Positions 38,246-44,445 of a stretch of 64,000 bases of DNA are shown here, piece after piece. Made by a program: the position numbers and the translations under genes. This DNA is from Escherichia coli (GTDB lineage: Bacteria > Pseudomonadota > Gammaproteobacteria > Enterobacterales > Enterobacteriaceae). The DNA lies in the NCBI RefSeq assembly GCF_003019035.1, contig NZ_CP027447.1; one strand, 5' to 3'. How positions within the stretch are numbered: position 1 is the stretch's first letter; every line of letters starts with the position of its first letter. The notes below the pieces were generated by a model. It was given only the letters and a program-made list of their open reading frames with translations, was not told the origin of the DNA and ran no database searches.

Positions 38246-38695
38246 ATGTTCTCACCGCAGTCACGCTTGCGTCATGCAGTTGCAGATACGTTCGCGATGG
38301 TTGTTTACTGTTCTGTCGTGAACATGTGTATTGAAGTTTTCCTCTCCGGAATGAGCTTCGAACAGTCTTTTTATTCCAGATTGGTAGCGATTCCGGTGAA
38401 CATCTTAATTGCATGGCCATACGGTATGTACCGCGATCTGTTTATGCGCGCAGCACGCAAAGTTAGCCCGTCGGGCTGGATAAAAAATCTGGCGGATATC
38501 ATGGCTTATGTGACGTTCCAGTCACCGGTGTATGTGGCGATCTTGTTAGTGGTGGGCGCAGACTGGCATCAGATTATGGCGGCAGTCAGTTCAAACATCG
38601 TTGTTTCGATGTTGATGGGGGCGGTTTATGGCTACTTCCTCGATTATTGCCGCCGACTGTTTAAAGTCAGCCGTTACCAGCAGGTAAAAGCCTGA
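38246..38695 (+). CDS. alaE: L-alanine exporter AlaE (YgaW)
   Basis: 149 aa; multi-TM; matches E. coli AlaE. Confidence 0.9.
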
Positions 38696-38704
38696 CCCTT
38701 CTTT

Positions 38705-38733
38705 TCGCGACTGGCATCGCCAGTCGCGTCTTT
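38705..38733. terminator. bidirectional terminator between alaE and ygaC
   Basis: Hairpin CGCGACTGGC-atc-GCCAGTCGCG with flanking T-rich sequence. Confidence 0.55.
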
Positions 38734-39076
38734 AACTGGCTTCGCCAAATAAACCATTCAAATAACGTTCAAGCGCAACACGCGAACTAAAGCCATGTGG
38801 GATACCGTAATGCTCATGACGTTCACCCGCTAAATAGAGCGGAAATTGCTGGTAATGATCGCAAGTTTTAATATCGGAAGCGGGTTCAGCCAGTGTTGAA
38901 CTACGTTCTTTTAATGTTGGATGAATCACCAGGGCGGTACGTCCCATTCGCGCTTCGCGATTAACATAGACATAATTTTCCCCACGGCGGTAACCATACG
39001 CTTTCTGGGTTACCACATCGACAGTAAAACCGACTTTTTCAAGTACGCGCGCCACCTCGTCTGGTCGTAAATACAT
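38732..39076 (-). CDS. ygaC: uncharacterised protein YgaC (DUF2002)
   Basis: 114 aa; matches remembered E. coli YgaC ([20 protein letters not shown]...). Confidence 0.85.
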
Positions 39077-39227
39077 ATTTGATCCTCGTTATTATCAACC
39101 GCGGGCCTACCTTACCTGATTGCGCATTCACAACGCTTTCAGAAAAGTCCATAAAGCCGCGATGAACCTCAGTTAAGAAAATTATGGTCTACACTGAAAA
39201 TTACATCGAATTCTAATGGGGGATCAT

Positions 39228-39557
39228 ATGTTTAACCGACCGAACCGCAACGACGTTGATGATGGCGTGCAGGATATCCAGAATGATGTCAATCAATTAG
39301 CTGACAGTCTCGAATCTGTATTGAAGTCCTGGGGCAGCGACGCCAAAGGGGAAGCCGAAGCCGCTCGTAGTAAAGCGCAGGCTCTACTGAAAGAAACCAG
39401 GGCGCGGATGCATGGTCGTACTCGCGTCCAGCAAGCCGCGCGCGATGCCGTTGGCTGCGCGGATTCTTTTGTTCGTGAAAGACCCTGGTGTAGTGTGGGT
39501 ACAGCGGCAGCGGTGGGTATTTTTATCGGCGCACTGTTAAGCATGCGCAAATCGTAG
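39228..39557 (+). CDS. ygaM: ribosome/membrane-associated protein YgaM (ElaB family, C-terminal TM anchor)
   Basis: Translation from MFNRPNRNDVDDGVQDIQ (109 aa); ATG at 39228. Confidence 0.9.
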   Translation: MFNRPNRNDVDDGVQDIQNDVNQLADSLESVLKSWGSDAKGEAEAARSKAQALLKETRARMHGRTRVQQAARDAVGCADSFVRERPWCSVGTAAAVGIFIGALLSMRKS

Positions 39558-39587
39558 TGCAAAAATGATAATAAATACGCGTCTTTG

Positions 39588-39616
39588 ACCCCGAAGCCTG
39601 GCTTCGGGGTTTTTTA
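39588..39616. terminator. bidirectional terminator after ygaM
   Basis: Hairpin CCCCGAAGCC-tg-GCTTCGGGG followed by TTTTTT. Confidence 0.65.
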
Positions 39617-40948
39617 GCTTAAGGCTTTACGTAATTGTTGTGCTACCTGTCGCGCCATACCTTCGTTAACGATATTAGTAAACGAAAGCAGTAATCCACC
39701 TTCCCCACTTGAACGGATACGCCAGTCGCTAAGTGCCTGCACCGCAAGGCCTGCAGCATTGGCTTTACGCGCATGGGCAATATCATCGCCTATCATTCTG
39801 ATCACCATCTGGATACCACCTTTCTGCGGCACAACCTGAAATCCTTGCTGCGTCAACGCTTGCTCAATCCATTGCCGACGTTGAGCATAATGCTGACGCA
39901 TTTTCTTCAGATGCCGCCAGAAATGCCCCTCGCGAAGAAAGTCTGCCAGTGTGTTCTGCCATAGAACAGGTACCGCACATGGAGCCAGTGACGCCTGGTG
40001 GCGGAATTGTGCAATTTGCTTCACCGGCACCACCAGCCACGCACAGCGCAATGCAGGAAATAGCGCTTTGCTGAATGTTCCGGCATAAATTACCCGCTGC
40101 GGTGCGTCGAGACTTTTCAACGCCGGTAACGGCTTACCGTGATAGCGAAACTCACTGTCATAATCATCTTCAATAATCCATGCCTGACTACGATCTGCCC
40201 ATTCCAGTATCTGATGCCTGCGCGCTAAAGAGAGCGCCACACCCAGCGGACTTTGGTGTGCTGGTGTTATCAGGGCAAAACGCGCATCAGGATAATTTTG
40301 TATTCCGCTTGTGATATCCAGTCCATTGTCATCAACCGGCACAGGCAAAATTTCCACATCATGGCGAGTGACAATCGGGCGAATCAGTGGAAAGCCGGGA
40401 TCTTCTATCCACATCCCGTTTCCCGGTTTCGCCAGCGCGTGCAGAATTAAAGCTATTGAGGCCGCATAACCGTGAGTGATAAAGACCTGCTCTGGCTGAC
40501 AATCAATCCCACGTGAAACGCGTAAGTAATCAACTATTGCCTCGCGCAACGCCACCTCACCGCAAACATCGCCTAACGCCAAATCAAAGCGCGTCTGGGT
40601 ACGAAGGCGACGCCCCATCACCCGCGCCCACAGCTCTCGCGGAAAGAGATCGAGTGCGGGTAATCCCATTTGAAATGGCAACGGTTGCTGACTTTCACCG
40701 GCAAAAGCTACAACTTGTACAGTAGATTGTTGCGGATATATCCGCTCACTGACAAATGTGCCAGCCTGTCCCCGCCTGATCAGCCATCCTTGCGCCACCA
40801 GCTCAGCATACGCATTTTCGACAGTGGAACGAGACACCCCCAGCTCCTGCGACCAGGTACGACTTGAAGGCAGCCTTGCGCCGGGTTTCAGTTCCCCTTG
40901 CTCAATAGCCGTTTTTAACTGACGGGCGATATCCTGATAGCGCGGCAT
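39614..40948 (-). CDS. MocR/GabR-type transcriptional regulator (GntR HTH fused to a PLP-dependent aminotransferase-fold domain)
   Basis: 444 aa; N-terminal GntR-type HTH (LPSSRTWSQELGVSRSTVENAYAELVAQGW); C-terminal fold-type I aminotransferase domain with putative PLP-lysine in GTFSKALFP. Not present between ygaM and nrdH in K-12 as far as I recall. Confidence 0.75.
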   Translation of the reverse strand: MPRYQDIARQLKTAIEQGELKPGARLPSSRTWSQELGVSRSTVENAYAELVAQGWLIRRGQAGTFVSERIYPQQSTVQVVAFAGESQQPLPFQMGLPALDLFPRELWARVMGRRLRTQTRFDLALGDVCGEVALREAIVDYLRVSRGIDCQPEQVFITHGYAASIALILHALAKPGNGMWIEDPGFPLIRPIVTRHDVEILPVPVDDNGLDITSGIQNYPDARFALITPAHQSPLGVALSLARRHQILEWADRSQAWIIEDDYDSEFRYHGKPLPALKSLDAPQRVIYAGTFSKALFPALRCAWLVVPVKQIAQFRHQASLAPCAVPVLWQNTLADFLREGHFWRHLKKMRQHYAQRRQWIEQALTQQGFQVVPQKGGIQMVIRMIGDDIAHARKANAAGLAVQALSDWRIRSSGEGGLLLSFTNIVNEGMARQVAQQLRKALS

Positions 40949-41035
40949 ATGGTCTGCTTTTTTAGGTAATTTATGGCTCTCTTTAGCAGTCCATTATAGT
41001 GCTACATTGCGGGCGTTAATAAGAGGAGAAACTGT

Positions 41036-41467
41036 ATGACTACATTACGTCAGCCTTACTACGAACTTAGCCCGGCAGTGTATAACGCACTAGTGCAGGC
41101 CAAAACGGCACTGGAAAATAGCACGCTGGATACCACGTTGATGGAGTTAGTTTATTTGCGCGTCTCGCAAATCAACGGCTGCGCATTTTGTCTGGAGATG
41201 CACAGCAAAGCATTGCGCAAATCCGGCGTGCCACAGCACAAACTGGACGCCCTGGCAGGTTGGCGCGTAAGCCATCATTTTGATGAACGCGAGCGGGCGG
41301 CGCTGGCATGGGCGGAATCGGTAACCGAAATTGCCAGAACCCATGCGGAAGACGAGGTTTATCAGCCTTTGCTTGAGCATTTCAGCGCAGCAGAGATCAG
41401 CGACTTAACGTTTGCCATCGGGCTGATGAATTGTTTTAACCGTCTGGCCGTTTCCATGCGGATGTAA
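41036..41467 (+). CDS. carboxymuconolactone decarboxylase / AhpD-like family protein
   Basis: 143 aa; CxxCxxxH motif (CAFCLEMH) characteristic of the AhpD/CMD family; divergent from the MocR-type regulator. Confidence 0.7.
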   Translation: MTTLRQPYYELSPAVYNALVQAKTALENSTLDTTLMELVYLRVSQINGCAFCLEMHSKALRKSGVPQHKLDALAGWRVSHHFDERERAALAWAESVTEIARTHAEDEVYQPLLEHFSAAEISDLTFAIGLMNCFNRLAVSMRM

Positions 41468-41554
41468 CTTCTTGATGCCGGGTATTCGCCCGGCAAAAAA
41501 ACACAAAATCCCCTACCCCGTTGAGCCATTCATCGGTGGCGTAACCAATCTAAA

Positions 41555-41605
41555 ATTCCCATATCTTGTGTGGTTGAATCTTTTTTCAACTACATCTAGT
41601 ATCTC
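41555..41605 (+). promoter_or_regulatory. nrdHIEF promoter region with NrdR-box-like motifs
   Basis: CCCATATCTTGTGTGG and AACTACATCTAGTATC resemble the NrdR box consensus (acaCwAtATaTwGtgt); exact boundaries uncertain. Confidence 0.35.
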
Positions 41606-41675
41606 TGTATCAACAGAGAGACAACCCGACGCGTATCATCGCGCCGTATCTTCATTTTAAACGGAAATACGAATC

Positions 41676-41921
41676 ATGCGCATTACTATTTACACTCGTA
41701 ACGATTGCGTTCAGTGCCACGCCACCAAACGGGCGATGGAAAACCGGGGCTTTGATTTTGAAATGATTAATGTCGATCGCGTTCCTGAAGCGGCAGAAAC
41801 GCTGCGTGCTCAGGGCTTTCGTCAGTTGCCGGTTGTGATTGCAGGCGATCTTAGCTGGTCTGGTTTCCGCCCGGACATGATCAATCGTCTGCATCCAGCG
41901 CCACACGCGGCCAGTGCATGA
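41676..41921 (+). CDS. nrdH: glutaredoxin-like protein NrdH
   Basis: 81 aa; CVQC redox motif; [21 protein letters not shown]. Confidence 0.95.
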
Positions 41922-42328
41922 GCCAGCTCGTCTACTTTTCCAGCAGCTCCGAAAATACGCAGCGTTTTATCGAACGTTTAGGGCTGCCCGCGGTGCGCAT
42001 CCCGCTCAATGAGCGGGAACGGATTCAGGTAGACGAGCCTTACATCCTGATCGTGCCCTCTTACGGCGGCGGCGGTACGGCTGGCGCGGTGCCACGACAG
42101 GTCATTCGCTTTTTAAACGACGAGCATAACCGGGCGTTGCTGCGCGGCGTTATTGCTTCGGGTAATCGCAACTTTGGTGAGGCATATGGCCGCGCCGGAG
42201 ATGTGATTGCCCGGAAATGCGGCGTGCCGTGGCTGTACCGCTTTGAACTCATGGGTACGCAAAGCGATATCGAAAACGTTCGTAAAGGAGTAACCGAATT
42301 TTGGCAACGACAACCGCAGAACGCCTGA
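41918..42328 (+). CDS. nrdI: ribonucleotide reductase stimulatory flavodoxin NrdI
   Basis: 136 aa; [21 protein letters not shown]; overlaps nrdH stop. Confidence 0.95.
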
Positions 42329-44445
42329 CGCAGGAAACGATGGATTATCACGCTCTGAATGCGATGCTTAACCTTTACGATAGCGCAGGTCGCATTCAGT
42401 TCGATAAAGATCGCCAGGCAGTAGACGCCTTTATGACAACGCATGTGCGTCCGAACAGTGTGGCCTTCAGTAGCCAGCAGCAGCGCCTGAACTGGCTGGT
42501 TAACGAAGGTTACTATGATGAAAGCGTCCTTAATCGCTACTCTCGCGATTTTGTCATTACGCTGTTTGCCCACGCGCACGCCAGCGGTTTTCGTTTCCAG
42601 ACATTCCTCGGAGCATGGAAGTTTTACACCAGCTATACGTTGAAGACATTCGACGGTAAGCGTTATCTGGAAGATTTTGCCGATCGCGTCACGATGGTGG
42701 CGCTGACGCTGGCACAAGGCGATGAAACACTGGCGACGCAGCTCACTGATGAGATGCTGTCAGGACGCTTTCAGCCAGCCACGCCAACATTCCTCAACTG
42801 CGGTAAGCAGCAGCGCGGCGAACTGGTTTCCTGTTTTCTGCTGCGTATTGAAGACAATATGGAGTCGATTGGCCGGGCAGTAAATTCCGCACTACAACTG
42901 TCGAAACGCGGCGGCGGCGTAGCATTTTTGCTGTCGAATCTGCGGGAAGCGGGCGCGCCAATTAAACGTATTGAAAATCAATCTTCTGGCGTGATTCCGG
43001 TGATGAAAATGCTGGAAGACGCATTTTCCTATGCCAACCAACTCGGCGCGCGTCAGGGGGCTGGGGCAGTCTATTTACATGCTCATCATCCCGATATTCT
43101 GCGTTTTCTCGATACAAAACGGGAAAATGCCGACGAAAAAATCCGCATTAAAACACTGTCGCTGGGCGTGGTGATCCCGGATATCACTTTCCATCTGGCG
43201 AAAGAGAATGCGCAGATGGCGCTGTTTTCGCCCTATGACGTTGAGCGGGTTTATGGCAAGCCGTTTGCCGATGTCGCCATCAGCGAACGCTATGACGAAC
43301 TGGTTGCCGATGAACGCATTCGCAAAAAATACCTCAACGCCCGTGATTTCTTCCAGCGACTGGCAGAGATCCAGTTTGAGTCTGGCTATCCGTACATCAT
43401 GTATGAAGACACGGTTAACCGTGCTAACCCTATCGCCGGGCGCATAAATATGAGCAATCTCTGCTCAGAAATTTTGCAGGTTAACAGCGCCTCAGAGTAT
43501 GACGAGAATCTCGACTATGCTCGTACAGGACATGATATTTCCTGCAATCTAGGGTCGTTGAATATTGCCCACACCATGGATTCCCCCGACTTTGCCCGCA
43601 CGGTAGAGACTGCCGTACGCGGTTTAACGGCGGTGTCAGATATGAGTCATATCCGCAGCGTGCCGTCCATCGAAGCCGGAAATGCCGCCTCACACGCCAT
43701 CGGTCTGGGGCAGATGAATTTACACGGTTATCTGGCGCGAGAAGGCATCGCTTATGGTTCGCCGGAAGCACTGGATTTCACCAATCTCTATTTCTATACC
43801 ATCACCTGGCACGCACTGCGTACCTCGATGTTGCTGGCGCGCGAACGCGGTGAAACCTTCGCCGGGTTCAAACAGTCACGCTATGCCAGTGGTGAATATT
43901 TCAGCCAATATCTGCAAAGTAACTGGCAGCCGAAAACGGCGAAAGTTGGCGAACTGTTTGCCCGTAGTGGTGTTACGTTACCTACCCGTGAGATGTGGGC
44001 GCAGCTGCGCGACGACGTGATGCGCTATGGCATATACAACCAGAATCTCCAGGCGGTGCCCCCAACCGGTTCTATCTCTTATATCAACCATGCCACGTCG
44101 AGTATTCATCCGATTGTGGCGAAAGTAGAGATACGCAAAGAGGGCAAAACAGGACGCGTTTACTACCCTGCCCCGTTTATGACTAACGAAAATCTGGCGC
44201 TGTATCAGGACGCTTACGAAATCGGCGCAGAAAAGATCATCGACACCTACGCGGAAGCGACTCGCCATGTCGATCAGGGGCTGTCGCTGACGCTGTTTTT
44301 CCCCGATACCGCCACCACTCGCGATATCAACAAAGCGCAGATTTACGCCTGGCGCAAGGGTATCAAAACGCTCTATTACATTCGCCTGCGTCAGATGGCG
44401 CTGGAAGGCACTGAAATTGAAGGCTGCGTCTCCTGTGCACTTTAA
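42301..44445 (+). CDS. nrdE: class Ib ribonucleotide reductase alpha subunit NrdE
   Basis: 714 aa; matches E. coli NrdE; C-terminal redox cysteines (CVSCAL). Confidence 0.95.

What the first reader, a model, noticed from the sequence alone, without database searches (positions are those of the whole stretch)
39614..41467. Strain-variable insertion of a MocR-type regulator divergent from an AhpD/CMD-family gene between ygaM and nrdH
K-12, as I recall, has only a short ygaM-nrdH spacer. Here a 444-aa GntR-HTH/aminotransferase-fold regulator with a PLP-lysine motif (GTFSKAL) is divergently paired with a 143-aa protein bearing the AhpD-type CxxCxxxH motif. This reads as a self-contained sensor-effector pair inserted upstream of the class Ib ribonucleotide reductase operon, possibly tying an oxidative or electrophile response to this locus.
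Basis: partly seen in the sequence, partly recalled or inferred. Interest (0 to 1): 0.45.

Follow-up and report, generated by a model that had tools for sequence, protein, structure and literature searches.

The report
Ancestral regulator–AhpD-like pair, deleted in K-12
The two genes between ygaM and nrdH are an old, already annotated enterobacterial pair: a vitamin-B6-binding regulator and a small thiol-redox protein. This strain has kept them, while K-12 and about three quarters of E. coli lost them in one old deletion, so this is an ordinary finding and not a new insertion.

Summary
Window 39614-40948 (-) encodes a 444-aa MocR-type regulator with a GntR helix-turn-helix, an aminotransferase fold and Lys294 in GTFSKAL. 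Window 41036-41467 (+) encodes a 143-aa AhpD/CMD-family protein with C49-x-x-C52-x-x-x-H56. K-12-type genomes have only a 247-bp ygaM-nrdH spacer.

The 'insertion' reading has the direction wrong. The same pair sits in the same ygaC-ygaM-[pair]-nrdHI context in E. albertii, E. whittamii, Citrobacter, Salmonella, Klebsiella, Raoultella, Kluyvera and others, about 57 species. G+C content is normal and there are no mobile-element marks. Of 5426 complete E. coli genomes, 4031 share one identical deletion scar and 1276 keep the pair.

Orthologues (STM2803, CKO_04020) were already described in silico as the MocR regulog 'Spro_3719 – Enterobacteriales', which controls a COG2128 gene (Suvorova & Rodionov 2016). 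The small protein is 41% identical to the crystallised PA0269, a weak thiol-dependent H2O2 reductase.

The 87-bp intergenic region holds a strongly conserved operator: ATGGTCT…ATGGCT…AGTCCAT, with a 46-bp outer span, abutting TATAGT. Both genes are under purifying selection (dN/dS 0.03-0.11). I found no evidence linking the pair to nrdHIEF. The newer RefSeq name 'PdxR' looks like over-annotation. The effector and the physiological role remain untested.

The parts
39228..39557 (+). ygaM (DUF883/ElaB-family), the left flank. Not part of the module.
   Evidence: NCBIfam PRK10132 227 bits; RefSeq annotation of identical loci.
39587..39615 (+). ygaM intrinsic terminator: an 11-bp stem followed by a T-run. 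The T-run overlaps the regulator's stop codon and is the left edge of the K-12 deletion.
   Evidence: Terminator scan; homology with K-12 ends here.
39614..40948 (-). MocR-family (GntR wHTH plus fold-type-I aminotransferase-like) PLP-dependent transcription factor, 444 aa, PLP-lysine K294. Orthologue of STM2803/CKO_04020 (RegPrecise group Spro_3719).
   Evidence: dN/dS 0.06-0.12 among Escherichia alleles.
40949..40955 (+). Operator box 1 (ATGGTCT), directly abutting the regulator's start codon.
   Evidence: At least 90% conserved across 58 enterobacterial loci. It is the left arm of a 46-bp-span inverted repeat found in 57 of 58 loci.
40973..40979 (+). Operator box 2 (ATGGCTC), a direct repeat of box 1 that overlaps the weak -35 position of the CMD promoter.
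   Evidence: The ATGG core and its spacing are conserved. The -35 assignment is my own reading of the sequence.
40988..40994 (-). Operator box 3 (AGTCCAT on the + strand, which is ATGGACT inverted), the right arm of the inverted repeat.
40993..41000 (.). Overlapping candidate -10 hexamers: TATAGT (40995-41000, + strand, for the CMD gene) and TATAAT (40998-40993, - strand, for the regulator).
   Evidence: TATAGT directly follows the inverted repeat in 54 of 58 loci. The simple promoter scan did not call it because the -35 hexamers are weak. Inferred, not shown.
41036..41467 (+). AhpD-like/CMD-family (COG2128) CxxC protein, 143 aa. Putative relay residues are E37, C49, F51, C52 and H56.
   Evidence: PF02627 and TIGR00778 ahpD_dom both pass their cut-offs. 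41% identity over the full length to PA0269 (2O4D/2IJC/7XW1), E=3e-31. dN/dS 0.03-0.11.
41477..41501 (+). Hairpin GCCGGG-N6-CCCGGC followed by A7. It is not a + strand terminator. The right edge of the K-12 deletion lies at about 41484-41488.
   Evidence: Read from the sequence. No + strand terminator is called between the CMD gene and nrdH.
41486..41560 (.). Spacer retained in both alleles but strongly diverged in the K-12-type allele. Near-identical homology resumes at 41561, upstream of nrdH.
41676..41921 (+). nrdH, the first gene of nrdHIEF and the right flank. Not part of the module.
   Evidence: NCBIfam PRK10329 189 bits.

Best explanation
This is an ancestral enterobacterial two-gene module that this (B2-like) strain has retained. 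It is not an acquired islet. A single old deletion of about 1.87 kb (window ~39616-41484) removed it from the lineage(s) that include K-12, and that deletion is now present in about 74% of complete E. coli genomes.

The module consists of a MocR-family regulator and a divergently transcribed AhpD-like CxxC protein. The regulator has a wHTH domain and a PLP-binding aminotransferase-like sensor domain with Lys294.

Inferred mechanism: the regulator dimer binds the conserved three-box operator ATGGTCT-N17-ATGGCTC-N8-AGTCCAT (46-bp outer span). This operator covers the -35/-10 region of the CMD promoter and the regulator's own promoter and leader. Binding would repress the regulator's own gene and, once an unknown amine or PLP-reactive ligand alters the PLP site, switch the CMD gene on, by analogy with GabR and PdxR.

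The CMD protein most likely acts as a thiol-dependent reductase of peroxides or other oxidants and electrophiles, by homology with PA0269.

Shown here: gene identities, synteny, direction of the indel, operator conservation and purifying selection. Inferred: DNA binding, the sign of regulation, the ligand and the substrate.
For: Domains and motifs.

Synteny: ygaC-(ygaM)-MocR<->CMD-nrdH-nrdI in C. koseri, S. salamae and K. aerogenes and in about 57 species from the GTDB scan.

Normal G+C of 0.51-0.53.

One junction, GGGGTTTCTTTTT|GCCTGG, in K-12, SE11 and EH01 and in 4031 of 5426 genomes. The pair is in 1276 of 5426.

Operator: at least 90% conserved blocks across 58 loci. The inverted repeat has exactly 46 bp outer span in 57 of 58 loci and is followed by TATAGT in 54. 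The same 46-bp architecture with diverged half-sites (ATGTCCY…GGNCAT) is found in 9 of 12 beta/gamma-proteobacterial loci whose MocR is only 45-49% identical.

Published regulog: Spro_3719-Enterobacteriales (STM2803, CKO_04020, KPN_03002 → COG2128), and COG2128 appears in 53 MocR regulons (PMC5320631 supplement).

dN/dS is 0.03-0.12.

PA0269 homology, with weak thiol-dependent H2O2 reduction reported (PMC3141380).
Against: There are no experimental data for this regulator or its target in any enterobacterium in the library searched.

The -35 hexamers are poor, and the simple promoter scan calls nothing in the intergenic region.

PA0269's peroxidase activity is weak, so peroxide may not be the true substrate. 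The relay Tyr of PA0269 is Phe51 here.

The module is dispensable. It is deleted in most E. coli, the regulator is truncated or frame-split in several genomes, and STM2804 was used as a neutral marker site in Salmonella mouse experiments (PMC3723669).
Confidence: 0.75

Rival explanations
1. One reading: a strain-specific insertion (a small genomic islet) that brought a sensor-effector pair in upstream of nrdHIEF.
For: The pair is absent from K-12 and from about 74% of E. coli genomes.
Against: It has the same position and orientation in about 57 Enterobacteriaceae species, including the sister species E. albertii and E. whittamii. Base composition is host-like. There are no integrase, IS, tRNA or direct-repeat boundaries. 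The K-12-type allele keeps a diverged remnant of the sequence downstream of the CMD gene (CACAAAATCCCCTACCCCGT), as expected of a deletion scar.
Confidence: 0.03
2. The regulator is PdxR, a controller of vitamin B6 (PLP) biosynthesis or salvage, as newer RefSeq records name it.
For: It passes NCBIfam NF052282 'PdxR' (407 bits, cut-off 320), and PGAP calls it pdxR in some genomes. Its best solved relative is B. clausii PdxR at 32% identity. PLP itself could be the ligand.
Against: The conserved operator sits in front of a CMD/AhpD-like gene, not a pdx gene, and occurs once in the 64-kb window. The same HMM is passed at 394-426 bits by 45-49%-identical MocRs heading GNAT-AcpD-CMD operons. In one of these the rhizopine-MocR model scores higher than the PdxR model, so the model is not specific. 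The comparative study places the orthologues in group Spro_3719, outside PdxR, PdxW and PdxQ. From general knowledge, E. coli makes PLP by the DXP-dependent PdxA/PdxJ route and has no pdxST.
Confidence: 0.1
3. The pair is functionally coupled to the class Ib ribonucleotide reductase. Either the CMD gene is read through into nrdHIEF, or the CxxC protein is a redox partner of NrdH/NrdI.
For: The CMD gene and nrdH are co-oriented and 208 bp apart with no predicted + strand terminator between them. The adjacency is conserved in most Enterobacteriaceae. Both proteins are CxxC redox proteins.
Against: There is no operator-like site near the nrdH promoter. Kluyvera species keep the pair without nrdHI nearby, and Pectobacterium, Pandoraea and Pseudomonas pairs are not near nrd. 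Most E. coli keep nrdHIEF without the pair. The nrdH-proximal 115 bp is near-identical in both alleles.
Confidence: 0.05
4. The module is a decaying, non-functional remnant in E. coli.
For: It is deleted in most strains. The regulator is truncated in strain 8178 and frame-split in several other genomes. STM2804 was treated as a neutral site.
Against: Both ORFs are intact here. dN/dS is 0.03-0.12 in all Escherichia comparisons despite dS of up to 0.7. The operator is nearly invariant across genera.
Confidence: 0.07

Closest known systems
RegPrecise regulog 'Spro_3719 – Enterobacteriales' (Suvorova & Rodionov 2016, PMC5320631): STM2803, CKO_04020, KPN_03002, Spro_3719, ECA2654 → COG2128 gene
   Same: It is the same orthologous regulator-target pair. 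C. koseri and Salmonella loci fetched here show the identical ygaM-[pair]-nrdH position. STM2804 lies about 5 kb from stpA, as the CMD gene does here.
   Different: That study used K-12 as its E. coli genome, so the E. coli copy was not included. I could not map locus tags to sequences directly, so the equivalence rests on position and gene content. The regulog is purely computational, with no assigned function.
PA0268 (MocR) / PA0269 (AhpD-like) of Pseudomonas aeruginosa; PA0269 crystal structures 2O4D, 2IJC, 7XW1
   Same: A MocR regulator sits next to a COG2128 gene. PA0269 aligns over its full length at 41% identity with the CxxC, His and Glu relay residues conserved. PA0269 shows weak, thiol-dependent H2O2 reduction.
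   Different: It belongs to a different MocR orthologous group (PA0268, not Spro_3719). That regulon often adds a cupin (COG1917). The relay Tyr50 is Phe51 here.
Bacillus subtilis GabR and Bacillus clausii PdxR (structurally characterised MocR regulators)
   Same: The domain architecture and PLP-lysine motif are the same. All are divergently transcribed from their target, with multi-box operators of direct and inverted repeats spaced several helical turns apart (PMC5320631 sections 9 and 11).
   Different: Identity is only about 30%. The target is a redox protein rather than gabTD or pdxST. GabR's Y205, R207 and R430 positions align with F186, L188 and D408 here (alignment). The role of those residues in clamping the GABA carboxylate is from my own knowledge. 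A different ligand is therefore expected.
Mycobacterium tuberculosis AhpD (the AhpC-reducing alkylhydroperoxidase)
   Same: The CMD fold family and the CxxC…H active-site motif.
   Different: TIGR00777 'ahpD' scores 30.9 against a cut-off of 192. There is no adjacent ahpC. The protein is half the size, and the catalytic helices are N-terminal, as in PA0269.
Pseudomonas aeruginosa MpaR (a MocR-family regulator of cyanide-inducible genes; PMC10790758)
   Same: A MocR regulator that acts through a palindromic motif on an adjacent stress or redox gene. It shows that the family can respond to a small PLP-reactive molecule rather than to a metabolite amino acid.
   Different: The target (ccoN4) and the orthologous group are different. 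There is no evidence that cyanide or similar compounds act here.

Membership tests
MocR subfamily of GntR regulators | N-terminal GntR-type winged helix-turn-helix | tested here: met
   PF00392, residues 4-66, 63.6 bits against a cut-off of 27.
MocR subfamily of GntR regulators | C-terminal fold-type-I aminotransferase-like domain with the PLP-binding lysine | tested here: met
   PF00155, 92.2 bits. K294 in GTFSKAL and D-D-Y-D-S-E-F-R-Y at 261-269 align with GabR and PdxR.
MocR subfamily of GntR regulators | Binds a repeat-containing operator near its own, usually divergent, target gene | tested here: inconclusive
   A conserved three-box operator is found by footprinting. Binding itself cannot be tested with these tools.
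PdxR (PLP biosynthesis/salvage regulator) | Passes the curated NCBIfam equivalog model NF052282 | tested here: met
   407 bits against a cut-off of 320. However, the model is also passed by distant MocRs of unrelated operons, so it does not discriminate.
PdxR (PLP biosynthesis/salvage regulator) | Operator in front of pdxST, pdxK, pdxU or another B6 gene | tested here: not met
   The only operator in the 64-kb window precedes the CMD gene. The orthologues are grouped outside PdxR, PdxW and PdxQ.
GabR | Passes the NCBIfam GabR model; adjacent gabTD | tested here: not met
   262 bits against a cut-off of 600. There are no gabT or gabD genes adjacent.
AhpD-like / CMD family (PF02627, COG2128) | CMD domain with the CxxC…H motif and the upstream Glu | tested here: met
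   PF02627 75.4 bits and TIGR00778 54.9 bits, both above their cut-offs. E37, C49, C52 and H56 are present, while Tyr50 of PA0269 is Phe51 here.
AhpD-like / CMD family (PF02627, COG2128) | Thiol-dependent hydroperoxide reduction | not testable with these tools
   Only a weak activity is reported for the 41%-identical PA0269.
AhpD proper (mycobacterial type) | Passes TIGR00777; partnered with ahpC | tested here: not met
   30.9 bits against a cut-off of 191.95. There is no ahpC in the neighbourhood.
Genomic island / mobile insertion | Atypical composition, mobility genes or repeat boundaries, and absence from syntenic outgroups | tested here: not met
   G+C is 0.51-0.53, like the flanks. There are no such features. 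The pair is present in the outgroups.

The most novel reading that the evidence does not exclude
The regulator may not sense a metabolite amino acid. Instead it could use its bound PLP as a chemical trap for a reactive small molecule, such as a carbonyl-reactive nucleophile or an oxidant that modifies the aldimine. That would switch on a thiol reductase, making this a PLP-based stress sensor conserved across Enterobacteriaceae and beta- and gamma-proteobacteria.

The idea is suggested by three things. Related regulons carry a redox and electrophile-detoxification flavour (AcpD, Bcp, GNAT, cupin). GabR's carboxylate-clamp residues are lost here. MpaR and cyanide provide a precedent.
Probability: 0.1. 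Interest if true: 0.5.

Novelty: already known. Interest (0 to 1): 0.15.

Why it matters
It matters little beyond tidy annotation. The result corrects the direction of an indel: K-12 is the deletion mutant and this strain is not an insertion carrier.

It flags the RefSeq 'PdxR' name for this gene as probably misleading.

It also gives a precise, conserved operator (40949-40994) for anyone who wishes to test one of the many uncharacterised MocR–COG2128 modules. Because natural E. coli strains exist with and without the pair, they form a ready-made system for finding its conditional phenotype.

Tried and rejected
Literature searches for MocR plus carboxymuconolactone decarboxylase, MocR plus AhpD, and ygaM plus nrdH plus phylogroup returned nothing.

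STM2804 appears only as a 'gene of no known function' used as a marker site.

ECs3533 turned out to be ygaM.

z3974 was pulled down from O157 lysate in a drug-target screen. I could not confirm that it is the CMD gene, because the supplementary table is not held.

Rfam found no RNA family in 38500-42500.

The simple promoter scan found nothing in the intergenic region, so the -10 assignments are my own reading.

A half-site search found no second operator in the window and none near the nrdH promoter.

Table S2 (motif classes) of the comparative-genomics paper is not in the held text.

The GTDB scan depends on shared 8-residue peptides. Species missing from its list, such as E. fergusonii and S. 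enterica LT2, cannot be scored as lacking the pair.

I did not run structure prediction, because full-length solved homologues exist for both proteins.
Full report
OBSERVATION. There is a 444-aa ORF on the minus strand (39614-40948) and a 143-aa ORF on the plus strand (41036-41467), separated by an 87-bp divergent intergenic region (40949-41035). ygaM (39228-39557) lies to the left and nrdH (41676-41921) to the right.

Pfam assigns GntR plus Aminotran_1_2 to the large protein and CMD to the small one. NCBIfam confirms YgaM and NrdH. GTFSKAL carries Lys294, and the small protein has C49-A-F-C52-L-E-M-H56.

A K-12-type O16:H48 chromosome has ygaM and nrdH 247 bp apart with nothing between them.

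DIRECTION OF THE INDEL. I looked up close homologues of the small protein in their contigs. Citrobacter koseri, Salmonella enterica subsp. salamae and Klebsiella aerogenes all have stpA-alaE-ygaC-ygaM-[MocR<- ->CMD]-nrdH-nrdI-nrdE-nrdF-proV, the same order and orientation as the window.

A scan of one genome per GTDB species returned 80 loci, which I screened by tblastn with the window's proteins. About 57 of them are Enterobacteriaceae with the pair in this context. They include Escherichia albertii, E. whittamii, Escherichia sp. E1V33, many Citrobacter, Salmonella diarizonae, the Klebsiella oxytoca group, Raoultella, Kluyvera, Yokenella, Pluralibacter, Pseudocitrobacter and Shimwellia. There are two variations: the C. 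freundii group lacks ygaM, and Kluyvera lacks nrdHI next door.

G+C across the pair is 0.51-0.53, like its flanks. No mobility gene, tRNA or repeat boundary is present.

Comparing K-12, SE11 and EH01-18-04-A with the window shows one and the same junction...GGGGTTTCTTTTT|GCCTGGTGAATCACAAAAATCCCCCTACCCCGT.... It joins the T-run of the ygaM terminator to the sequence just downstream of the CMD gene, and a diverged remnant of that downstream spacer is retained. The net difference is 1871 bp.

A 96-nt query spanning this junction is found in 4031 of 5426 complete E. coli genomes. The pair is found in 1276, and about 119 genomes have other states, for example a truncated regulator in strain 8178. 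The pair is therefore ancestral, and K-12 carries a single old deletion. The 'insertion' reading is not supported.

WHAT THE GENES ARE. The regulator's best solved relatives are B. clausii PdxR (E=3e-62, 32% identity) and B. subtilis GabR (E=2e-54). The PLP-lysine motif and the DDYDSEFRY block are conserved.

GabR residues Y205, R207 and R430 align with F186, L188 and D408 here. From my own knowledge these residues clamp the GABA carboxylate, so I expect a different ligand.

The small protein aligns end to end with P. aeruginosa PA0269 (2O4D, 2IJC, 7XW1; E=3e-31, 41% identity). PA0269 is an AhpD-like protein whose relay residues are Glu36, Cys48, Tyr50, Cys51 and His55, and it reduces H2O2 weakly in a thiol-dependent manner (PMC3141380). 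Here the equivalents are E37, C49, F51, C52 and H56, so four of the five are kept. The mycobacterial-type AhpD model is far below its threshold.

Both genes are under purifying selection. dN/dS is 0.06-0.12 for the regulator and 0.03-0.11 for the small protein among five Escherichia alleles.

ALREADY DESCRIBED. The comparative-genomics study of MocR regulons (PMC5320631) lists COG2128/PF02627 genes 53 times among MocR targets. It defines an orthologous group 'Spro_3719' whose Enterobacteriales regulog comprises CKO_04020, STM2803, KPN_03002, Ent638_0497, ECA2654 and Spro_3719, each controlling a COG2128 gene. The neighbouring groups PA0268 and blr6977 are also COG2128-associated.

In other taxa the Spro_3719 group also controls AcpD-type reductases, Bcp, GNAT acetyltransferases and cupins. 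I saw the same GNAT-AcpD-CMD operons next to 45-49%-identical MocRs in Pectobacterium, Bordetella and Zoogloea.

STM2804 is cited as a gene of no known function about 5 kb from stpA, used as a neutral marker site (PMC3723669). That fits this locus. I found no experimental study of the pair.

OPERATOR. Aligning the intergenic regions of 58 enterobacterial loci gives a block conserved at 90% or more: ATGGTCTgcTTTTTt…ATGGct.TCT…gcAG.CCATTATAGTGCTA.

In window coordinates, box 1 is ATGGTCT at 40949-40955, directly abutting the regulator's start codon. Box 2 is ATGGCTC at 40973-40979. Box 3 is AGTCCAT at 40988-40994, an inverted copy of box 1.

The outer inverted repeat spans exactly 46 bp in 57 of 58 loci and is followed at once by TATAGT in 54. 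In 9 of 12 distant beta/gamma-proteobacterial loci, an inverted repeat with different half-sites (ATGTCCY…GGNCAT) has the same 46-bp span. That argues for a conserved protein-DNA geometry.

The plus-strand TATAGT (40995-41000) and the minus-strand TATAAT (40998-40993) are candidate -10 elements for the two divergent genes. The -35 positions are weak and coincide with box 2, and the simple promoter scan does not call them.

By analogy with GabR and PdxR, I infer autorepression plus ligand-dependent activation of the CMD gene. Simple repression cannot be excluded.

The half-site occurs as a pair only here in the 64-kb window and not near the nrdH promoter.

THE 'PdxR' NAME. Newer RefSeq records call the regulator pdxR because it passes NCBIfam NF052282 at 407 bits against a cut-off of 320. 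The same model is passed at 394-426 bits by the K. aerogenes and Salmonella orthologues and by distant MocRs of GNAT-AcpD-CMD operons. In one of the distant cases the rhizopine-MocR model scores higher.

The operator precedes a redox gene, not a B6 gene, and the published classification keeps this group apart from PdxR, PdxW and PdxQ. I therefore treat the name as unproven and probably over-specific.

LINK TO nrdHIEF. The CMD gene and nrdH are co-oriented with no predicted terminator between them, so read-through cannot be excluded.

Four things argue against functional coupling. The pair occurs without adjacent nrdHI in Kluyvera and away from nrd in more distant taxa. Most E. coli keep nrdHIEF without the pair. 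The 115 bp proximal to nrdH are almost identical in both alleles. No operator-like site is present there.

VERDICT. The finding is a correct observation of an ordinary, already annotated and computationally described module. It is ancestral in Enterobacteriaceae and polymorphic in E. coli through one deletion. Its ligand and substrate are unknown. The most novel reading still open is a PLP-based sensor of a reactive small molecule, which rests only on analogy (MpaR) and on regulon content.

Noticed in passing
L002:1959-2107 (O157:H7) and L013 (Escherichia sp. E1V33); the corresponding site in the window is 39558-39586: The O157-type allele carries about 94 extra bases between the ygaM stop codon and its terminator. 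These bases are absent from the window and from K-12.
   Followed up: partly
window 39228-40948 versus L002: There is deep allelic divergence inside the locus. Between the window and O157, dS is 0.43 for the regulator and 0.33 for ygaM, but only 0.09-0.12 for the CMD gene, nrdH and nrdI. The O157 regulator allele is close to that of Escherichia sp. E1V33 (dS 0.11). This suggests an old recombination boundary near the intergenic region.
   Followed up: partly
L003:2015-2758; L006:2402-3754; L019, L057, L058: The regulator is truncated or frame-split while the CMD gene stays intact in E. coli strain 8178, a C. koseri metagenome contig, C. amalonaticus AUH_CA_2023_1, Kluyvera genomosp. 3 and Enterobacter sp. 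ENT03. This is either recurrent decay of the regulator or sequencing errors.
   Followed up: partly
L044 (record titled Chryseobacterium sp. 18061): This contig has complete enterobacterial ygaC-ygaM-MocR-CMD-nrdHI synteny, like L042 (Citrobacter sp. 18056) from the same project. The record is probably mislabelled or contaminated.
   Followed up: no
L022 (Leminorella grimontii ATCC 33999): The CMD protein is 86%, the MocR 77% and YgaC 88% identical to the E. coli proteins, but there is no ygaM or nrdH hit. That is unexpectedly close for a member of the Budviciaceae.
   Followed up: no
L045, L046, L048, L051-L054, L057, L071 (Kluyvera spp.): The pair lies next to ygaC-ygaM, but nrdH and nrdI are not within 4 kb downstream. 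The class Ib RNR operon is therefore elsewhere or lost in this genus.
   Followed up: no
window 41486-41560 versus L001:2021-2094 and L011: The 75-bp spacer just upstream of the conserved nrdH promoter region is only roughly 60% alike between pair-carrying and deletion alleles. It also differs among the deletion alleles (K-12 versus EH01-18-04-A), whereas the flanks are 97-99% identical.
   Followed up: partly
L004 (E. coli P276M): stpA, alaE, ygaM, nrdH, nrdI and nrdE are all annotated as frameshifted or partial pseudogenes in this 4.54-Mb genome. This is either an error-rich assembly or a degraded genome.
   Followed up: no
L011 (E. coli EH01-18-04-A): The flanks are 99.4% identical to the window (B2-like ygaM allele), yet the strain carries the K-12-type deletion junction. 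The deletion allele has therefore moved between backgrounds or predates their split.
   Followed up: partly
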